Shown here: one piece after another, positions 6,147-36,048 of the stretch
How the letters are laid out: every line of letters begins with the position of its first letter
How positions within the stretch are numbered: position 1 is the first letter of the stretch
Source of the DNA: Escherichia phage Ebrios
Sequence record: MG966531
Length of the DNA stretch: 39,752 nucleotides
Reading direction: 5' to 3' (one strand)
Notes under the pieces: generated by a model
Told to the model about the DNA's origin: nothing
The model's input: only the letters and a program-made list of their open reading frames with translations
Database searches by the model: none
Translations under genes and position numbers: made by a program

Positions 6147-6169
6147 TAATACGACTCACTATTGGGAGA
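6147..6169 (+). promoter_or_regulatory. Phage promoter phi1.1B
   Basis: TAATACGACTCACTATTGGGAGACC; the same 25-mer recurs at 8135. Confidence 0.75.
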
Positions 6170-6259
6170 CCTTAAGGTTCTACTTTAAGACCCTTAAGAC
6201 TCTTACTTTAAGATTTAATTTAAGACCAAATTTAAGACTTACTCTAAGGAGACTTTAAG
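6165..6259 (+). other. AT-rich region downstream of phi1.1A/B; putative primary replication origin
   Basis: Runs of ttaag / tttaag repeats in an AT-rich stretch directly after the two promoters, where the T7 primary origin lies. Confidence 0.4.
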
Positions 6260-6720: not shown

Positions 6721-7743
6721 ATGATGAACATCAAGACCAACCCATACAAAGCTGTGTCCTTCAACGAGAAATCCGTTGAGAAGGCGCTCAAGCGTTCGCA
6801 CTACCTGATTGCTGACATCAAGTATGATGGTGTGCGCGGGAACACTCTGGTCAAACCGTCTCAAGGTGCTTGCTGGCTCTCTCGGGTATCGAAACCGATT
6901 CCGGCGATTGAGCACCTGAACGATGGCGCTGCCCGTTGGGACAACCTGCTCAAGGACAACCGCTGCATGTTCCCGACTGGCTTTATGCTCGATGGCGAGC
7001 TGATGGTTGACGGTGTGGATTTCAACACTGGCTCCGGCCTGCTGCGAACCAAGTGGCTAGACTCCAAGAATCAGGAGTTCCATAATGAGTTCCTGCCGCG
7101 CAATGTCAAGAAGTCCGAGAAGATTCCGTTCCGTCTGGACGCTGGCCTGCTCAAGGTCGTAATTTACGCTGTGCTCCCGATTGAAGTGGTGGAGTCCGGC
7201 GATGACTATCCGGTCAAGAACCTGCTGATGCAGGAACACGTCAAGAACATGCTGCCTCTGCTCCGCGCTCACTTCCCTGAGATTAGCTGGCAAGCGGCTG
7301 AGTCCCATGAGGTGTACGATATGACCGAACTGTCTGCACTGTACGAAATGAAACGCGAGGAGGGTCACGAAGGTCTCATTGTGAAAGACCCGAGCGACAT
7401 CTACAAGCGCGGCAAGAAGTCTGGGTGGTACAAACTTAAGCCGGAACAAGAGGCTGACGGCATCATCCAAGGCGTCAACTGGGGAACAAAGGGCTTAGCC
7501 AACGAGGGCAAGGTAATCGGCTTTAGTGTGCTTCTTGAGTCTGGCCGTCTGGTAGATGCCAACAACGTCTCACGCGTGCTGATGGACGAGTTCACCGCCA
7601 ACGTTAAGGAGCACGGTGCGGACTATTACAACGGCTGGCAGTGCCAGATTGCCTATATGGAGGAGACCAAAGATGGCTCACTGCGTCACCCGTCTTTCAG
7701 TTGCTTCCGAGGAACTGAGGACAATCCAACAGAGAAGATATAA
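6721..7743 (+). CDS. 1.3: Gene 1.3 ATP-dependent DNA ligase
   Basis: Starts MMNIKTNPYKAVSF; active-site lysine motif IADIKYDGVRG; ends ...SLRHPSF..FRGTEDNP.EK as T7 ligase does. Confidence 0.95.
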   Translation: MMNIKTNPYKAVSFNEKSVEKALKRSHYLIADIKYDGVRGNTLVKPSQGACWLSRVSKPIPAIEHLNDGAARWDNLLKDNRCMFPTGFMLDGELMVDGVDFNTGSGLLRTKWLDSKNQEFHNEFLPRNVKKSEKIPFRLDAGLLKVVIYAVLPIEVVESGDDYPVKNLLMQEHVKNMLPLLRAHFPEISWQAAESHEVYDMTELSALYEMKREEGHEGLIVKDPSDIYKRGKKSGWYKLKPEQEADGIIQGVNWGTKGLANEGKVIGFSVLLESGRLVDANNVSRVLMDEFTANVKEHGADYYNGWQCQIAYMEETKDGSLRHPSFSCFRGTEDNPTEKI

Positions 7744-8137
7744 GCTAGACCCTGCGGCTCCTTCCGGAGTCGCTTCTTCCAAAGGTAAGCCGATTGGCTC
7801 ACGAAGAAAGGATGGCTACTGGGTTCTGTCCTGTGGTGGCAAGCACATCCTTGCGCATAGGGTAGTCTGGGTGCTTCACAATGGGCCAATACCTGATGGC
7901 TTGGTCATTGACCACATCAACAGGAATCCTAGTGACAACCGGATAGAGAACCTACGATGCGTACCGCAATCGGTGAACCTTGCGAACGTCAGTGTTCGGC
8001 CACATTGTAAGAGCGGCGAGAAGTACATTGCGTTCGATAGTAGAACTGGTCGATTCACTGTGAGAATCAGGCGGGTTAACCACGGAACCTTCGCCACTCT
8101 TGAGGAGGCGATAGCGAAGCGCGACTCTGTGATGTAA
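7673..8137 (+). CDS. HNH homing endonuclease with C-terminal AP2-like DNA-binding domain
   Basis: HNH motif HRVVWVLHNGPIPDGLVIDHINRNPSDNRIENLR....N and C-terminal GEKYIAFDSRTGRFTVRIRRVNHGTFATLEEA. ATG at 7673 has RBS GGAGGAG; the open frame extends up to the GTG at 7616, so the exact start is uncertain. Confidence 0.8.
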   Translation: MAHCVTRLSVASEELRTIQQRRYKLDPAAPSGVASSKGKPIGSRRKDGYWVLSCGGKHILAHRVVWVLHNGPIPDGLVIDHINRNPSDNRIENLRCVPQSVNLANVSVRPHCKSGEKYIAFDSRTGRFTVRIRRVNHGTFATLEEAIAKRDSVM

Positions 8138-8157
8138 TACGACTCACTATTGGGAGA
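8135..8157 (+). promoter_or_regulatory. Phage promoter, exact duplicate of the phi1.1B 25-mer
   Basis: TAATACGACTCACTATTGGGAGACC, overlapping the HNH stop codon. Confidence 0.7.
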
Positions 8158-8162
8158 CCATT

Positions 8163-8199
8163 GGCCTGCACCTCCTGAGGGTGTGGGCCTTTGTAGTTT
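8163..8199 (+). terminator. Early intrinsic terminator (TE-like) for host RNAP
   Basis: GGCCTGCACC/GGTGTGGGCC stem with 7-nt loop, then a T-rich tract TTTGTAGTTT; resembles the T7 TE hairpin CACCTTCGGGTGGGCCTTT. Confidence 0.6.
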
Positions 8200-8226
8200 C
8201 TACAAGACTCACTAAAGGAGGCCATT

Positions 8227-8478
8227 ATGCTGATGAACAACTACCTGACCAATCCGGCTCACCCGCTGAGCCCTCTGAATCCAATCAGCCCAATTAGCAT
8301 TTGGAATCAAGGATGCTCGCGAGAGGAGACCGTTGAGGTAGTCTCGCAACGCCAACACCGCGAGCTTGACCCTAAAGAGAAACTGGTACTGGGTGCTGGG
8401 TTCGGTGTCTGCCTTGCTCTGCTGCTGACCCTTGTGCTGGTTATGGTGTTCGGAGAGATTGGCCGACCGCGCCACTAA
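8227..8478 (+). CDS. Hypothetical small protein with C-terminal transmembrane helix (gene 1.4/1.5 position)
   Basis: 83 aa; RBS AAAGGAGG; Pro-rich N-terminus and hydrophobic stretch LVLGAGFGVCLALLLTLVLVMVFG. Not recognised. Confidence 0.55.
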   Translation: MLMNNYLTNPAHPLSPLNPISPISIWNQGCSREETVEVVSQRQHRELDPKEKLVLGAGFGVCLALLLTLVLVMVFGEIGRPRH

Positions 8479-10742: not shown

Positions 10743-11197
10743 TGTCACGAGTACAATTCAAACAGAGGGAGGCGACTAACGCCATTTTCGTACACTGCTC
10801 TGCAACCAAGGCAACTCAGGACGTTGGTGTCCGTGAGATTCGCCAGTGGCACAAGGAGCAGGGCTGGCTTGACGTAGGCTACCACTTCATCATTCGCCGT
10901 GATGGTACTGTTGAAGATGGTCGAGACGTTAACGCCGTGGGCTCTCACGCCCGTGGTCACAACCACAACTCCGTAGGCGTGTGCCTTGTTGGAGGCATTG
11001 ACGAGAAGGGTCGGCACGAAGCCAACTTCACCCCTCAACAGATGTCTTCCCTGCGCACTCTGCTGGAAGTCCTGATGGACAAGTACCCGAGCGCGGTACT
11101 GAAAGCTCACCATGATGTTGCACCGAAGGCTTGCCCTTCGTTCGACCTGCAACGCTGGTGGAAGCACAATGAGCTGGTCACTTCTGACCGAGGCTAA
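10742..11197 (+). CDS. 3.5: Gene 3.5 lysozyme (N-acetylmuramoyl-L-alanine amidase; RNAP inhibitor)
   Basis: M.RVQFKQRE...AIFVHCSATK...VGVREIRQWHKEQGWLDVGYHFII.RDGTVE...APKACPSFDL.RWW..NELVTSDRG as in T7 gp3.5. Confidence 0.95.
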   Translation: MSRVQFKQREATNAIFVHCSATKATQDVGVREIRQWHKEQGWLDVGYHFIIRRDGTVEDGRDVNAVGSHARGHNHNSVGVCLVGGIDEKGRHEANFTPQQMSSLRTLLEVLMDKYPSAVLKAHHDVAPKACPSFDLQRWWKHNELVTSDRG

Positions 11198-11217: not shown

Positions 11218-11255
11218 GCGTAATGTTCTCCCTCATTCAACTAAAGGAGGAAGCT

Positions 11256-13435
<2,180 letters not shown>

Positions 13436-14051: not shown

Positions 14052-14074
14052 TTATTCGACTCACTAATGGAGGT
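14052..14074 (+). promoter_or_regulatory. Degenerate phage promoter (phi4.7 position)
   Basis: TTATTCGACTCACTAATGGAGGT: core GACTCACTA retained, upstream TAATAC altered to TTATTC. Confidence 0.4.
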
Positions 14075-14081
14075 AGACACT

Positions 14082-14510
14082 ATGCGTAGCCAATTCGTAA
14101 TCGAAGCCGAGATTGCCAAACTGCAAGCTGAACTAGAAGACGTTAAGGCCCACGAATCGAAAGTCATTGCGGCTGCCCACATCCTGACCAACCTTGGCTG
14201 GACTTGGACTCGCAAAGACGGCTGGAAGAAACCGGTAGCTCCGATTAAGCCTACCGTGTTCGACAAGGACACCATGACCCACATCAAGAAGGGCGACTTC
14301 TGCCTGTACGCTAAGGGAACAGTTCTGGAAGGCTTTGTGCTTGTCCGTGAAGTGAACGGTGCCGAATGCACTGTATCCTATGTGTCCAGTATCGCAGAGT
14401 TCAACCGTCCGGTTGTCGCTACGTTGAAATTCCGTTGTCATGCAAACATGCTAAAGGTTGTCTCTAGCCAGACACTTGTTGACTGCATGAAGAACAACAT
14501 GGTTATTTAA
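14082..14510 (+). CDS. 4.7: Gene 4.7 protein
   Basis: 142 aa from the ATG at 14082 with RBS GGAGG; the ATG at 14067 lies inside the promoter core and has no RBS. Confidence 0.7.
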   Translation: MRSQFVIEAEIAKLQAELEDVKAHESKVIAAAHILTNLGWTWTRKDGWKKPVAPIKPTVFDKDTMTHIKKGDFCLYAKGTVLEGFVLVREVNGAECTVSYVSSIAEFNRPVVATLKFRCHANMLKVVSSQTLVDCMKNNMVI

Positions 14511-14529
14511 CCACATTTGGAGAATCACT

Positions 14530-34092: not shown

Positions 34093-36048
34093 ATGGCTAA
34101 CGTGATTAAAACTGTGCTGACTTATCCGCTGGATGGCTCGACTACGGACTTCAACATCCCGTTCGAGTATCTGGCCCGTAAGTTTGTAGTGGTGACTCTG
34201 CTTGGTGCAGACCGCCGAGTCCTGACGTTGCCCACCGATTACCGATTCGCTACCCGCACGGTCATTGCAACCAACAAGGCGTGGGGGCCAGCCGATGGTT
34301 ACACTCAAATCGAAATCCGCCGAGTGACTTCGGCCACTGAGCGACTGGTGGACTTTACGGATGGCTCGATTCTCCGAGCGTATGACCTGAACGTCGCCCA
34401 AATCCAGACCATGCACGTTGCTGAGGAGGCCCGTAACATGACCGCCGATACTATCGGTGTCAACAACGATGGTCACTTGGATGCCCGTGGTCGTAGGATT
34501 GTTAACTTGGCGTATGCCACAAGTGACTATGATGCCGTTCCTTTAAAGCAGATTAAAGAGCGTGAATTCTCTGCATGGAATGCCGTAACAAAAGCTAACG
34601 AACACGCTGACCGTTCCAATAAGGAAGCAAACAGTTCTCGTGACGAGGCCAACCGCGCTCAACGTGAAGCTGACCGCTCAACGCAACAGGCAGGCGTCTC
34701 TACTCAACAAGCAGTCGAGTCCAAGAAGCAAGCTGACCGTTCCGGCTCCGAGGCTAACCGAGCTAAAGGCTATGCTGATGGCATGACCGCAAGCGTCGCT
34801 GAGGCCAAGACGCAAGCTGACCGTTCCGGCTCTGAGGCCAATCGTGCCAGTGATGGGGCCAATCGTGCTGCCGGAGAAGTGACTAAAGCTGCTGCTGAGG
34901 TTGCCAAGGCTGCTGCACATGTTGAGACCGCTAAGGGACATGCTGATAGGGCTAACGTTGAGGCAAACCGCTCCAAAGGTGAGGCTGACCGTGCTAAGTC
35001 TGAGGCCAATAGGGCACAACAAGCAGTCCAATACGTGAAAGACCTTGGTGCTGTTCCTGTAGGTACTATCGCTATGTTCGGAACTGCCGCCATTCCTGCT
35101 GGCTGGTTGTCCCTTATGGAGGACGACCCTATCTTTGATGTTAGGGTTTACCCAGACTTGGCCAGATTGTACCCTACAGGACACCTACCGTCCTATAAGG
35201 ACAGGGTGCCGGAAGGTGTAGGCTCAGGTATCACTCTTGGTCAGAAACGCGCTGGTAATGTTGGTGTAACTTCGGCTATTATGCTACAGACCGATACAGT
35301 TGACTTAAACCATTCACATGATTTCTCAGGGAGCACAACAAGTGGTGGCGAACATGAGCACTTCATTAACTCACTAAACCAGCGGTCTGACTCAGGGGTT
35401 TACCCTACAATCGAATGGTCGAACTGGCGCTCGCCAAACCCGCCAAACTGGACTAAGACAGCAATTGGTGGTAAGCATTCCCACTCAGTCAGTGGTATTA
35501 CAGCCGGTATGAAAAATGGAGTTGGTCAGAAACACAACCACACTATCTCTGGTGTAGTTGGGTCTGGTCGGAACTTAGTTGATGCAACGGGTACTATTTT
35601 TGCGATTAAAGCATTTGGGACAGTTGCCAATGAAGGGTCTCTAGATGCACCTGCACTTAGTGGCTCAATCCAGCGTGTTAACAACAGGGTCAGTACACTT
35701 GAAACAGCAGTTGGGTATGGGAGGAAGGTGAACATTTCCGACCTTCTTGTTCCAGCAACTGGGTGGACTTTTAATAATGATGAATGCCCAGTCCTAGAGA
35801 CAGCTAGTGGGTACATCGTGAGAGCCATATTCCGAGGAATTGGAAGCTCTGGCTCTACAACACGCAACATGTGTACGTTGAAAGCTGGTCTCAAGTGTGT
35901 TGGTTATTCAGCCGCTGTTGTGTATAACCCTACCCTTCCAACAGGAGCTGGTTATGTCGAGTTACTACACCCAAATTACCTAGCCGTTGCTGGGAGTAAT
36001 GGCCCGTATGGGTGGGTTATGGCAACACTAACATTAGAGAAAGTATAA
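34093..36048 (+). CDS. 17: Gene 17 tail fibre, chimeric: T7-like N-terminal and shaft regions, divergent distal collar/HxH domain
   Basis: First ~150 aa match T7 gp17 (MANVIKTVLTY.LDGS...VNNDGHLDARGRRIVNLA); middle has ADRS/EANRA-type repeats; distal ~330 aa carry PVGTIAMFGTAAIPAGWL and HSH/HEH/HSHS/HNH motifs. 651 aa versus 553 in T7. Confidence 0.9.
   Translation: MANVIKTVLTYPLDGSTTDFNIPFEYLARKFVVVTLLGADRRVLTLPTDYRFATRTVIATNKAWGPADGYTQIEIRRVTSATERLVDFTDGSILRAYDLNVAQIQTMHVAEEARNMTADTIGVNNDGHLDARGRRIVNLAYATSDYDAVPLKQIKEREFSAWNAVTKANEHADRSNKEANSSRDEANRAQREADRSTQQAGVSTQQAVESKKQADRSGSEANRAKGYADGMTASVAEAKTQADRSGSEANRASDGANRAAGEVTKAAAEVAKAAAHVETAKGHADRANVEANRSKGEADRAKSEANRAQQAVQYVKDLGAVPVGTIAMFGTAAIPAGWLSLMEDDPIFDVRVYPDLARLYPTGHLPSYKDRVPEGVGSGITLGQKRAGNVGVTSAIMLQTDTVDLNHSHDFSGSTTSGGEHEHFINSLNQRSDSGVYPTIEWSNWRSPNPPNWTKTAIGGKHSHSVSGITAGMKNGVGQKHNHTISGVVGSGRNLVDATGTIFAIKAFGTVANEGSLDAPALSGSIQRVNNRVSTLETAVGYGRKVNISDLLVPATGWTFNNDECPVLETASGYIVRAIFRGIGSSGSTTRNMCTLKAGLKCVGYSAAVVYNPTLPTGAGYVELLHPNYLAVAGSNGPYGWVMATLTLEKV

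What the first reader, a model, noticed from the sequence alone, without database searches (positions are those of the whole stretch)
7616..8160. HNH-AP2 homing endonuclease gene inserted at the 3' end of the DNA ligase gene, flanked by a duplicated promoter
An ORF encoding an HNH nuclease motif (HRVVWVLHNG...VIDHINRNPSDNRIENLR...N) plus an AP2-like DNA-binding tail sits between the ligase stop and the TE terminator, where T7 has gene 1.4. Its best start (ATG 7673, RBS GGAGGAG) lies 71 nt inside the ligase reading frame. Directly after it is a promoter whose 25-nt sequence is identical to phi1.1B at 6147. That arrangement is what a homing-endonuclease gene that brought its own promoter copy would leave behind.
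Basis: partly seen in the sequence, partly recalled or inferred. Interest (0 to 1): 0.6.

Follow-up and report, generated by a model that had tools for sequence, protein, structure and literature searches.

The report
HNH homing endonuclease gene after ligase
A selfish nuclease gene of an already catalogued T7-group family (gene 1.45 of Yersinia phage phiYeO3-12) sits behind the DNA ligase gene of this phage; it arrived by recombination together with the last ~320 bases of the ligase gene, and the promoter after it belongs to the phage rather than to the insert.

Summary

The gene is the orthologue of phiYeO3-12 gene 1.45 and KP32 gene 9: about 70% amino-acid identity, the same locus and the same 71-nt overlap.

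The closest relatives (IME15 and three Aeromonas phages) are collinear but lack it. Window-to-IME15 divergence in the ligase gene jumps from 1.9% to 31% at about 7413-7420. That fits import of the gene together with the ligase 3' end, as in homing with co-conversion. Deleted and decayed copies exist in other phages. dN/dS outside the overlap is about 0.1.

The idea that the insert brought its own promoter copy is refuted. Relatives without the HNH gene carry the same promoter fused to the ligase stop codon, just upstream of TE. In every lineage examined the HNH reading frame ends inside that phage's own promoter type.

Verdict: an ordinary new member of a known, biochemically uncharacterised family of homing endonuclease genes. 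Its composite 5' end (ligase +1 frame, then a TE-like hairpin) is a modest curiosity.

The parts
6721..7743 (+). DNA ligase gene (T7 gene 1.3 homologue), 340 aa. Its last 71 nt are shared with the HNH ORF in another frame.
   Evidence: Pfam DNA_ligase_A_M E 5e-29 and DNA_ligase_C E 1e-38. Same length as, and collinear with, the IME15 ligase.
7420..8134 (+). Tract foreign to the IME15-type backbone: the ligase 3' end (about 320 nt) plus the HNH-specific sequence. It is interpreted as a homing/co-conversion tract. The left crossover lies at about 7413-7420 against IME15 and about 7455 against KFSA9. The right crossover is at the promoter.
   Evidence: Against IME15 there are 13 mismatches in 6721-7419 and 99 in 7420-7743 (Fisher p 2e-40). 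Window 7744-8130 has no counterpart in IME15 or KFSA9. The HNH-bearing metagenomic relative L012 has the same breakpoint.
7659..7665 (+). Shine-Dalgarno sequence GGAGGAG for the HNH ORF, lying inside ligase codons.
   Evidence: Read directly from the sequence. GGAGGAG in the window, L012 and the KP32-type loci, GGAGGAA in phiYeO3-12 and CQ615, GGAGGT in L014 and L067. Three of the four closest HNH-less relatives have GGAAGAG (PZL-Ah1 has GGAGGAG).
7673..8137 (+). HNH homing-endonuclease gene, 154 aa plus stop. It is the orthologue of phiYeO3-12 gene 1.45 and KP32 gene 9.
   Evidence: tblastn gives 67-74% identity over residues 1-154 to more than 40 Studiervirinae genomes; in all but a few rows the annotated features under the match include 'DNA ligase'. 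Annotated regions. dN/dS outside the overlap is 0.08-0.11.
7754..7773 (+). Small conserved hairpin GCGGCUCC-UUCC-GGAGUCGC, 10 nt after the ligase stop and inside HNH codons 28-34 (AAPSGVA). It looks like a remnant of the early terminator TE.
   Evidence: RNA folds. It aligns to T7/T3 TE. The equivalent site is annotated 'putative TE' in phiYeO3-12. In orthologue L014 it is a full terminator-like site (9-bp stem, T run).
7850..7978 (+). HNH_3 catalytic domain (residues 60-102). It includes the invariant D80-H81, N89, N93 and N105.
8009..8134 (+). AP2-like DNA-binding tail: three beta strands (119-122, 127-132, 135-140) plus a helix (143-153). It is shortened by 4 residues relative to homologues that score with Pfam AP2.
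8135..8159 (+). Resident phage-RNAP promoter, identical over 25 nt to phi1.1B at 6147. Its TAA is the HNH stop codon.
   Evidence: The same promoter is present in the HNH-less relatives, where its TAA is the ligase stop codon.
8163..8199 (+). Early terminator TE (11-bp stem, then TTTGTAGTTT), belonging to the IME15-type backbone.
   Evidence: Terminator scan. Fold -22.6 kcal/mol, z -3.6. Conserved in IME15, KFSA9 and L012.

Best explanation
ORF 7673-8137 is a free-standing homing endonuclease gene (HEG). It has an HNH ββα-metal nuclease core like that of I-HmuI and an AP2-like DNA-binding tail. It is the orthologue of gene 1.45 of Yersinia phage phiYeO3-12.

How it likely works (inferred). During mixed infection the enzyme cuts or nicks the ligase/TE region of a related genome that lacks the gene. 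Repair copies the HEG-bearing allele across the break. This transfers the gene and co-converts flanking DNA.

What is shown for this lineage. An IME15-type phage carries a block running from about 7420, inside the ligase gene, to the resident promoter at 8135. The right-hand crossover was probably inside that promoter, which every T7-group phage carries in near-identical copies.

The reading frame is composite:
- Codons 1-24 are the +1 frame of the last 24 ligase codons. The SD and ATG are made from ligase codons.
- Codons 28-34 run through a TE-like hairpin.
- The stop codon is the TAA of the promoter.

Because of the overlap, the ligase allele that travels with the HEG reads F(S/T)CF instead of FVMF. 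The FVMF codons (GTAATG) put a TAA in the HEG frame.

The promoter is not cargo.

Shown: domains, fold, orthology, presence/absence, breakpoint, purifying selection, degenerate copies. Inferred: cleavage, target site, direction of transfer, expression.
For: Domains and fold:
- HNH_3 at E 1e-21.
- Catalytic D-H...N...N columns invariant in 82 homologues.
- AF2 model pLDDT 89.9.
- Of the 120 homologues listed, 29 carry PF00847 together with PF13392.

Orthology and conserved architecture:
- 67-74% identity to genes that lie at or overlapping the ligase gene in phiYeO3-12, KP32, Patroon, CQ615 and others.
- phiYeO3-12 gene 1.45 is annotated at 7903-8376 and ligase at 6933-7973, which is the same 71-nt overlap.
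- ATG at -71 and ligase F[ST]CF in every HNH-bearing locus examined.

Presence/absence and import:
- The window is collinear with IME15 and KFSA9 at 88-97% identity, except for a few blocks. One of these is 7744-8130.
- Ligase divergence from IME15 steps from 13/699 to 99/324 mismatches, p 2e-40.
- L012 is an IME15-type contig carrying the HNH gene at 93-94% identity. It shares the same left breakpoint and the same right junction.

HEG life cycle. Among 58 IMG/VR ligase loci:
- 5 carry full copies.
- 2 carry internal-deletion derivatives (L019, L025).
- 1 carries a decayed remnant (L016).
- The rest have none.

Selection: dN/dS is 0.08-0.11 for codons 25-154. It is 0.6-2.2 in the HNH frame for the overlap codons, which is what one expects if the ligase frame dictates that stretch.

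Promoter is resident.
Against: No biochemical or genetic evidence of cleavage or homing exists for any member of this orthologue group, as far as I could find.

The direction of exchange is not proven. The IME15 clade could instead have received an HNH-less ligase 3' end from elsewhere.

The donor is not in the databases. The nearest orthologue outside this lineage is only about 74% identical, so the transfer is not recent or the donor has not been sampled.

The KFSA9 breakpoint (about 7455) differs from the IME15 one (about 7420). This shows extra recombination in the region, and that need not be HEG-driven.

Pfam AP2 does not score.
Confidence: 0.85

Rival explanations
1. One reading: the homing-endonuclease gene is a cassette that carries its own promoter copy, duplicated from phi1.1B, and left it behind at its 3' end.
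For: The 25-nt sequence at 8135-8159 is identical to that at 6147-6171.
Against: All four HNH-less relatives have the same promoter at the same place, fused to the ligase stop codon and directly upstream of TE. In IME15 it already matches phi1.1B at 23 of 25 positions. In phiYeO3-12, KP32 and CQ615 the orthologous ORF abuts promoters of the T3, KP32 and T7-phi1.5 types respectively, that is, each phage's own specificity.
Confidence: 0.03
2. The gene is ancestral in this clade. IME15 and the Aeromonas phages lost it by acquiring an HNH-less ligase 3' end from another phage, or by deletion. On this view the window shows vertical inheritance, not invasion.
For: Deletion derivatives and remnants exist in other lineages (L019, L025, L016). 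The breakpoints differ between IME15 and KFSA9. The direction cannot be read from pairwise divergence alone.
Against: Simple deletion would not produce 31% divergence over the adjoining 320 nt of the ligase gene. The ligase tail of the window carries the F[ST]CF, SD and ATG signature shared with HNH-bearing phages of other genera. That fits a block travelling with the HEG. Four sampled relatives lack the gene and two sequences have it (the window and L012).
Confidence: 0.1
3. It is a domesticated nuclease that the phage needs, for example for host DNA breakdown, exclusion of competitors or DNA processing. On this view it is not a selfish mobile gene.
For: Strong purifying selection, dN/dS about 0.1. 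The gene is conserved across several genera of Studiervirinae.
Against: It is absent from the closest relatives and from T7 and T3. Degenerate copies occur in KP32-like phages, so it is dispensable. It is not next to the terminase gene, unlike the packaging-associated HNH proteins. Purifying selection is also expected of an actively homing gene.
Confidence: 0.07
4. The HNH domain is made as a ligase-HNH fusion by a programmed +1 frameshift near the end of the ligase gene, not from its own start codon.
For: The HNH frame is open from 7616 onward, well inside the ligase gene, and is +1 relative to it.
Against: An SD plus ATG at -71 is conserved in all orthologues, which is enough for independent initiation. 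No slippery or shifty motif was identified. The upstream +1-frame sequence is not conserved as protein.
Confidence: 0.02

Closest known systems
Gene 1.45 of Yersinia phage phiYeO3-12 (AJ251805, CAB63597; 'homologous to HNH endonuclease'), and its orthologues such as Klebsiella phage KP32 gene 9
   Same: 73% (phiYeO3-12) and 68% (KP32) amino-acid identity over the whole protein. Same locus directly after ligase gene 1.3. Same 71-nt overlap with the ligase gene. Same TE-like hairpin in codons about 28-34. The reading frame ends in the next phage promoter.
   Different: The backbone here is IME15-type Teseptimavirus, not T3-type or KP32-type. The window keeps a full TE terminator downstream of the gene as well as the hairpin. 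In phiYeO3-12 the hairpin is the only TE candidate. The stop codon here is the first triplet of the promoter.
HNH-AP2 family of homing endonuclease genes (Magnani et al. 2004, PMC520932, as cited in PMC10448857)
   Same: N-terminal HNH_3 nuclease plus a C-terminal three-strand/one-helix DNA-binding module. 29 of the 120 listed homologues score with both Pfam families. The fold matches plant AP2 domains.
   Different: The tail here is shortened (a 4-residue gap in the beta2-beta3 region and no C-terminal extension). It falls below detection by Pfam AP2.
I-HmuI (PDB 1U3E), the intron-encoded HNH nicking endonuclease of Bacillus phage SPO1
   Different: I-HmuI is intron-encoded and uses a different C-terminal DNA-binding region. 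Whether the enzyme here nicks or makes a double-strand cut is unknown.
Free-standing homing endonucleases of T4 (SegG, MobE)
   Same: A gene placed between conserved genes. The flanking conserved gene is co-converted, possibly from a distant cleavage site. Distribution among relatives is sporadic (concept from PMC2790892 and PMC2988022; pattern here).
   Different: SegG belongs to a different nuclease family (GIY-YIG). There are no experimental data for the present gene. Here the HEG's own start lies inside the neighbouring gene.
T7 gene 1.4
   Same: Occupies roughly the same inter-genic neighbourhood, between ligase and phi1.5.
   Different: Not homologous. T7 gene 1.4 is a 51-aa ORF lying downstream of TE.

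Membership tests
HNH endonuclease, HNH_3 (PF13392) | Profile match above the Pfam gathering score | tested here: met
   76.6 bits against a cut-off of 24.8, E 1.2e-21, residues 60-102.
HNH endonuclease, HNH_3 (PF13392) | Catalytic His and metal-binding Asn residues of the ββα-Me motif are intact | tested here: met
AP2 DNA-binding domain (PF00847) | Profile match to Pfam AP2 | tested here: not met
   No hit at E<=10, whether the whole protein or the isolated tail is scanned.
AP2 DNA-binding domain (PF00847) | Three-stranded sheet packed on one helix, superimposable on solved AP2 domains | tested here: met
Free-standing homing endonuclease gene | Present or absent at one locus in otherwise collinear close relatives | tested here: met
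   Absent from IME15, KFSA9, avDM11 and PZL-Ah1. Present in the window and L012. phiYeO3-12 has it and T3 does not.
Free-standing homing endonuclease gene | Co-conversion tract in flanking DNA | tested here: met
   Divergence in the ligase gene steps from 1.9% to 31% at about 7420, p 2e-40, with the same breakpoint in L012. The direction of transfer is inferred.
Free-standing homing endonuclease gene | Degenerate or deleted copies occur in some lineages (invasion-decay-loss cycle) | tested here: met
   L019 and L025 carry an internal deletion. L016 carries a scrambled remnant.
Free-standing homing endonuclease gene | Site-specific cleavage of the HEG-less allele, and biased inheritance in crosses | not testable with these tools
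   No experimental report was found for this orthologue group.
phiYeO3-12 gene 1.45 orthologue group | Full-length similarity, the same genomic position and the same overlap with the ligase gene | tested here: met
   72.7% identity over residues 1-154. 71-nt overlap in both.

The most novel reading that the evidence does not exclude
The HEG reading frame is a composite created by overprinting. Its first 24 codons are the +1 frame of the ligase C-terminus, and the next codons run through the early terminator TE. Three things would follow. (i) A specific ligase allele (F[S/T]CF, lacking the +1-frame TAA of FVMF) is an obligatory passenger of the mobile element. (ii) Host-RNAP transcripts that stop at the embedded TE cannot encode the nuclease. 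Expression would therefore be gated to terminator read-through or to phage-RNAP transcription. (iii) T7-group promoters serve as portable right-hand homology that lets the cassette enter phages with different RNAP specificities.
Probability: 0.35. Interest if true: 0.45.

Novelty: new member of a known kind. Interest (0 to 1): 0.22.

Why it matters
In itself it matters little. Genes of this family have been annotated as HNH endonucleases after the ligase gene of T7-group phages since the phiYeO3-12 genome record.

It is a clean natural example of homing-type mosaicism in Studiervirinae:
- a datable-looking co-conversion tract inside an essential-type gene;
- full, deleted and decayed copies at one locus;
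- a HEG whose start, leader and stop are all borrowed from resident sequences (ligase codons, TE, promoter).

The family has not been characterised biochemically. The ligase/TE junction of IME15-type, T3 or T7 DNA is therefore an obvious candidate substrate. A site-specific HNH-AP2 enzyme acting on T7-group genomes could be a useful tool for phage engineering.

Tried and rejected
- **Literature on gene 1.45.** Full-text searches found no functional study. The original phiYeO3-12 genome paper is not held. What I say about its annotation therefore comes from the GenBank record.
- **The 83-aa ORF downstream (8227-8478) as part of the same imported block.** Rejected. L012 has the HNH gene but keeps the IME15-type 27-aa ORF. 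The ORF has no homologue in the phage database, PHROGs or Pfam.
- **Intragenomic duplication from the window's second HNH gene (11223-11744).** Rejected. The two are only 32% identical.
- **GTG 7616 as the start.** Rejected in favour of ATG 7673. The ATG at that position is shared by all orthologues and most have a GGAGG-type SD before it; the upstream +1-frame sequence is not conserved as protein; and the ATG matches the phiYeO3-12 annotation.
- **The hairpin 7754-7773 as a working terminator in the window.** Not supported. It lacks a T run and fails the terminator scan, and its fold z-score is only -1.85. I treat it as a TE-like remnant.

Full report
**1. What is in the sequence**

The window is a complete-looking T7-group genome with 16 promoters of the form TAATACGACTCACTA....

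- The ligase gene (T7 gene 1.3 homologue) runs from 6721 to 7743 (Pfam DNA_ligase_A_M and DNA_ligase_C).
- In the +1 frame an ORF is open from 7616 to the TAA at 8135-8137.
- The only credible start is ATG 7673, seven bases after GGAGGAG (7659-7665). There is no other ATG, GTG or TTG in frame before the nuclease motif.
- From that ATG the protein has 154 residues, and the gene overlaps the ligase gene by 71 nt.
- Immediately after the ORF lies the promoter TAATACGACTCACTATTGGGAGACC (8135-8159). It is identical over 25 nt to the promoter at 6147.
- A strong terminator hairpin follows at 8163-8189 with a T tract.

**2. What the protein is**

- Pfam HNH_3 scores 76.6 bits (cut-off 24.8, E 1e-21) on residues 60-102.
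- PHROG 99 'HNH endonuclease' gives E 5e-44.
- The only solved structure found by sequence is the homing endonuclease I-HmuI (E 2e-4).
- In an alignment of 82 homologues, D80, H81, N89, N93 and N105 are invariant, and all are present here.

Pfam AP2 does not score, either on the whole protein or on the isolated tail. The AP2 claim therefore needed another test.

- An AlphaFold model built on the 82-sequence alignment is confident (mean pLDDT 89.9; 94-97 in the tail). It shows three strands and a helix at residues 119-153.
- 29 of the 120 more distant homologues listed carry PF00847 together with PF13392. The window's tail aligns with their AP2 segment, with a 4-residue gap.

The tail is thus a shortened AP2-like module. 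The N-terminal HNH plus C-terminal AP2 architecture is a recognised family of homing endonucleases (Magnani et al. 2004, as cited in PMC10448857).

**3. It is a known gene at a known place**

tblastn against 50,697 phage records finds 59 records at 60-80% identity. In all but a few of the 40 listed, the annotated features under the match include 'DNA ligase'. They include:

- Yersinia phage phiYeO3-12 gene 1.45 (73% identity);
- Klebsiella phage KP32 gene 9;
- Klebsiella phage Patroon;
- Escherichia phage CQ615.

In the phiYeO3-12 record, gene 1.45 is annotated at 7903-8376 and ligase at 6933-7973. That is the same 71-nt overlap. The record also annotates a 'putative early terminator TE' inside gene 1.45 and promoter phi1.5 across its stop codon. 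I found no functional study of this gene.

**4. Present or absent in a collinear background, with a co-conversion tract**

The nearest genomes are Stenotrophomonas phage IME15 and three Aeromonas phages: KFSA9, avDM11-UST and PZL-Ah1. Whole-genome blastn shows collinearity at 88-97% identity, interrupted by a few blocks. One of those blocks is window 7744-8130.

In all four relatives the ligase stop codon is the first triplet of the promoter...GAGAAGATG-TAAT(T/A)CGACTCACTATTGGG(G)AGACTAC. The same TE hairpin follows directly.

The difference is not confined to the ORF. Against IME15, the ligase gene has:

| Region | Mismatches | Divergence |
|---|---|---|
| 6721-7419 | 13 | 1.9% |
| 7420-7743 | 99 | 31% |

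Fisher's exact test gives p = 2e-40. Over that 3' stretch the window is closer to HNH-bearing phages of other genera than to IME15.

A metagenomic contig (L012, Logan SRR28338924) is IME15-like and carries the HNH gene at 93-94% identity. It has the same left breakpoint and the same right junction. The acquisition therefore predates the split between the window and L012.

This is the pattern left by homing with co-conversion of a flank. The direction of transfer remains an inference.

**5. The promoter is resident, not cargo**

- The HNH-less relatives have this promoter at this position.
- In IME15 it already matches phi1.1B at 23 of 25 positions. Two substitutions make the window's copies identical.
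- The orthologous ORF ends inside a T3-type promoter in phiYeO3-12 (…ATTAACCCTCACTAA).
- It ends inside a KP32-type promoter in KP32 (…ATTAATTAGGACCCACTATAGGAGA).
- It ends inside the T7-type phi1.5 promoter in CQ615 (…GCTAATACGACTCACTAA).

So the right edge of the cassette is always the next promoter of the resident phage. That promoter also supplies the last codons and the stop. The likely reason is that near-identical promoters provide recombination homology. The 'brought its own promoter copy' reading is refuted.

**6. The overlap and the composite 5' end**

I extracted the ligase tail from 58 IMG/VR loci plus the reference phages.

- Every locus with a full HNH gene has ATG at -71 and ligase ...PSF[S/T]CFRGTED....
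- Most HNH-less phages have FVMF or FDKW.
- The FVMF codons (GTAATG) put a TAA into the HNH frame. T7 itself has the SD and the ATG, but only a 9-codon ORF.

The ligase allele and the HEG are therefore coupled.

dN/dS measured in the HNH frame is 0.6-2.2 over the 24 overlap codons. It is 0.08-0.11 over codons 25-154. The leader is thus dictated by the ligase frame, while the nuclease body is under purifying selection.

Ten bases after the ligase stop there is a conserved hairpin: GCGGCUCC-UUCC-GGAGUCGC at 7754-7773 (loop UUCG in the orthologues), encoding AAPSGV.

- It aligns with TE of T7 and T3.
- In orthologue L014 the same position holds a full terminator-like site: a 9-bp stem followed by TTTTTGCGTT.
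- In the window it lacks a T run and fails the terminator scan. The real TE of the IME15 backbone lies downstream.

**7. Life-cycle evidence**

In KP32-like loci L019 and L025 the gene carries an internal deletion. This leaves 37 N-terminal codons and an out-of-frame 3' end. L016 holds a scrambled remnant. L015 has the FTCF ligase tail but no HNH sequence.

Full, decaying and absent states at one locus are what a selfish homing gene is expected to show.

**8. Verdict**

The identification as an HNH/AP2-like homing endonuclease gene with a start inside the ligase gene is supported. The promoter-cargo mechanism is not.

The element is a new member (about 70% identity) of an already annotated but experimentally uncharacterised orthologue group. 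Interest is low to modest.

The most interesting residue is the composite architecture: ligase +1 frame, then a TE-like hairpin, then the nuclease, then a promoter-supplied stop. With it goes the obligatory hitch-hiking ligase allele.

Noticed in passing
window 11223-11744 (+): A second free-standing HNH gene (173 aa). It scores above the Pfam cut-off for both HNH_3 (E 1e-9) and AP2 (E 8e-9). It lies directly after the promoter at 11195 and overlaps the start of the primase/helicase gene (11722). The block 11234-11870 has no counterpart in IME15. It is only 32% identical to the ligase-side HNH protein.
   Followed up: partly
window 8227-8478 (+): An 83-aa ORF with a hydrophobic C-terminal segment replaces the 27-aa ORF found at this position in IME15, KFSA9 and L012. 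It has no match in the phage database (tblastn), PHROGs or Pfam. It is an orphan gene whose acquisition was independent of the HNH gene.
   Followed up: partly
window 34545-36044: This part of the tail-fibre region has no blastn match to IME15, and a differently placed gap against KFSA9. It is probably a swap of the receptor-binding domain.
   Followed up: no
L012 1789-2280: The metagenomic relative carries yet another HNH_3 gene, with a weak AP2 hit, between the RNA polymerase gene and gene 1.1. The window has only promoters there.
   Followed up: partly
L019 about 2226-2330; L025 about 2247-2350; L016 about 2223-2400: KP32-like viral contigs L019 and L025 carry internal-deletion derivatives of the ligase-side HNH gene. 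Teseptimavirus-like contig L016 carries a scrambled remnant. L015 keeps the FTCF ligase tail with no HNH sequence at all.
   Followed up: yes
L014 2233-2264: In this orthologue a complete terminator-like site (9-bp stem, UUCG loop, TTTTTGCGTT) lies inside the N-terminal coding part of the HNH ORF. This suggests that the reading frame passes through a functional early terminator.
   Followed up: partly
L008 (T7) about 1486-1515 of the locus, i.e. the last 70 nt of T7 gene 1.3: T7 itself has GGAGGAA plus an ATG in the +1 frame of the ligase 3' end. This gives only a 9-codon ORF (MALCGTHRS*), closed by the TAA within the FVMF codons. It could be a pre-existing feature that the HEG exploited, or a footprint.
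   Followed up: no
window 14075-14518 versus KFSA9: The window's 147-aa ORF (14067-14510, no Pfam hit) is replaced in KFSA9 by a non-homologous gene annotated 'endonuclease VII'. IME15 shares the window's version.
   Followed up: no
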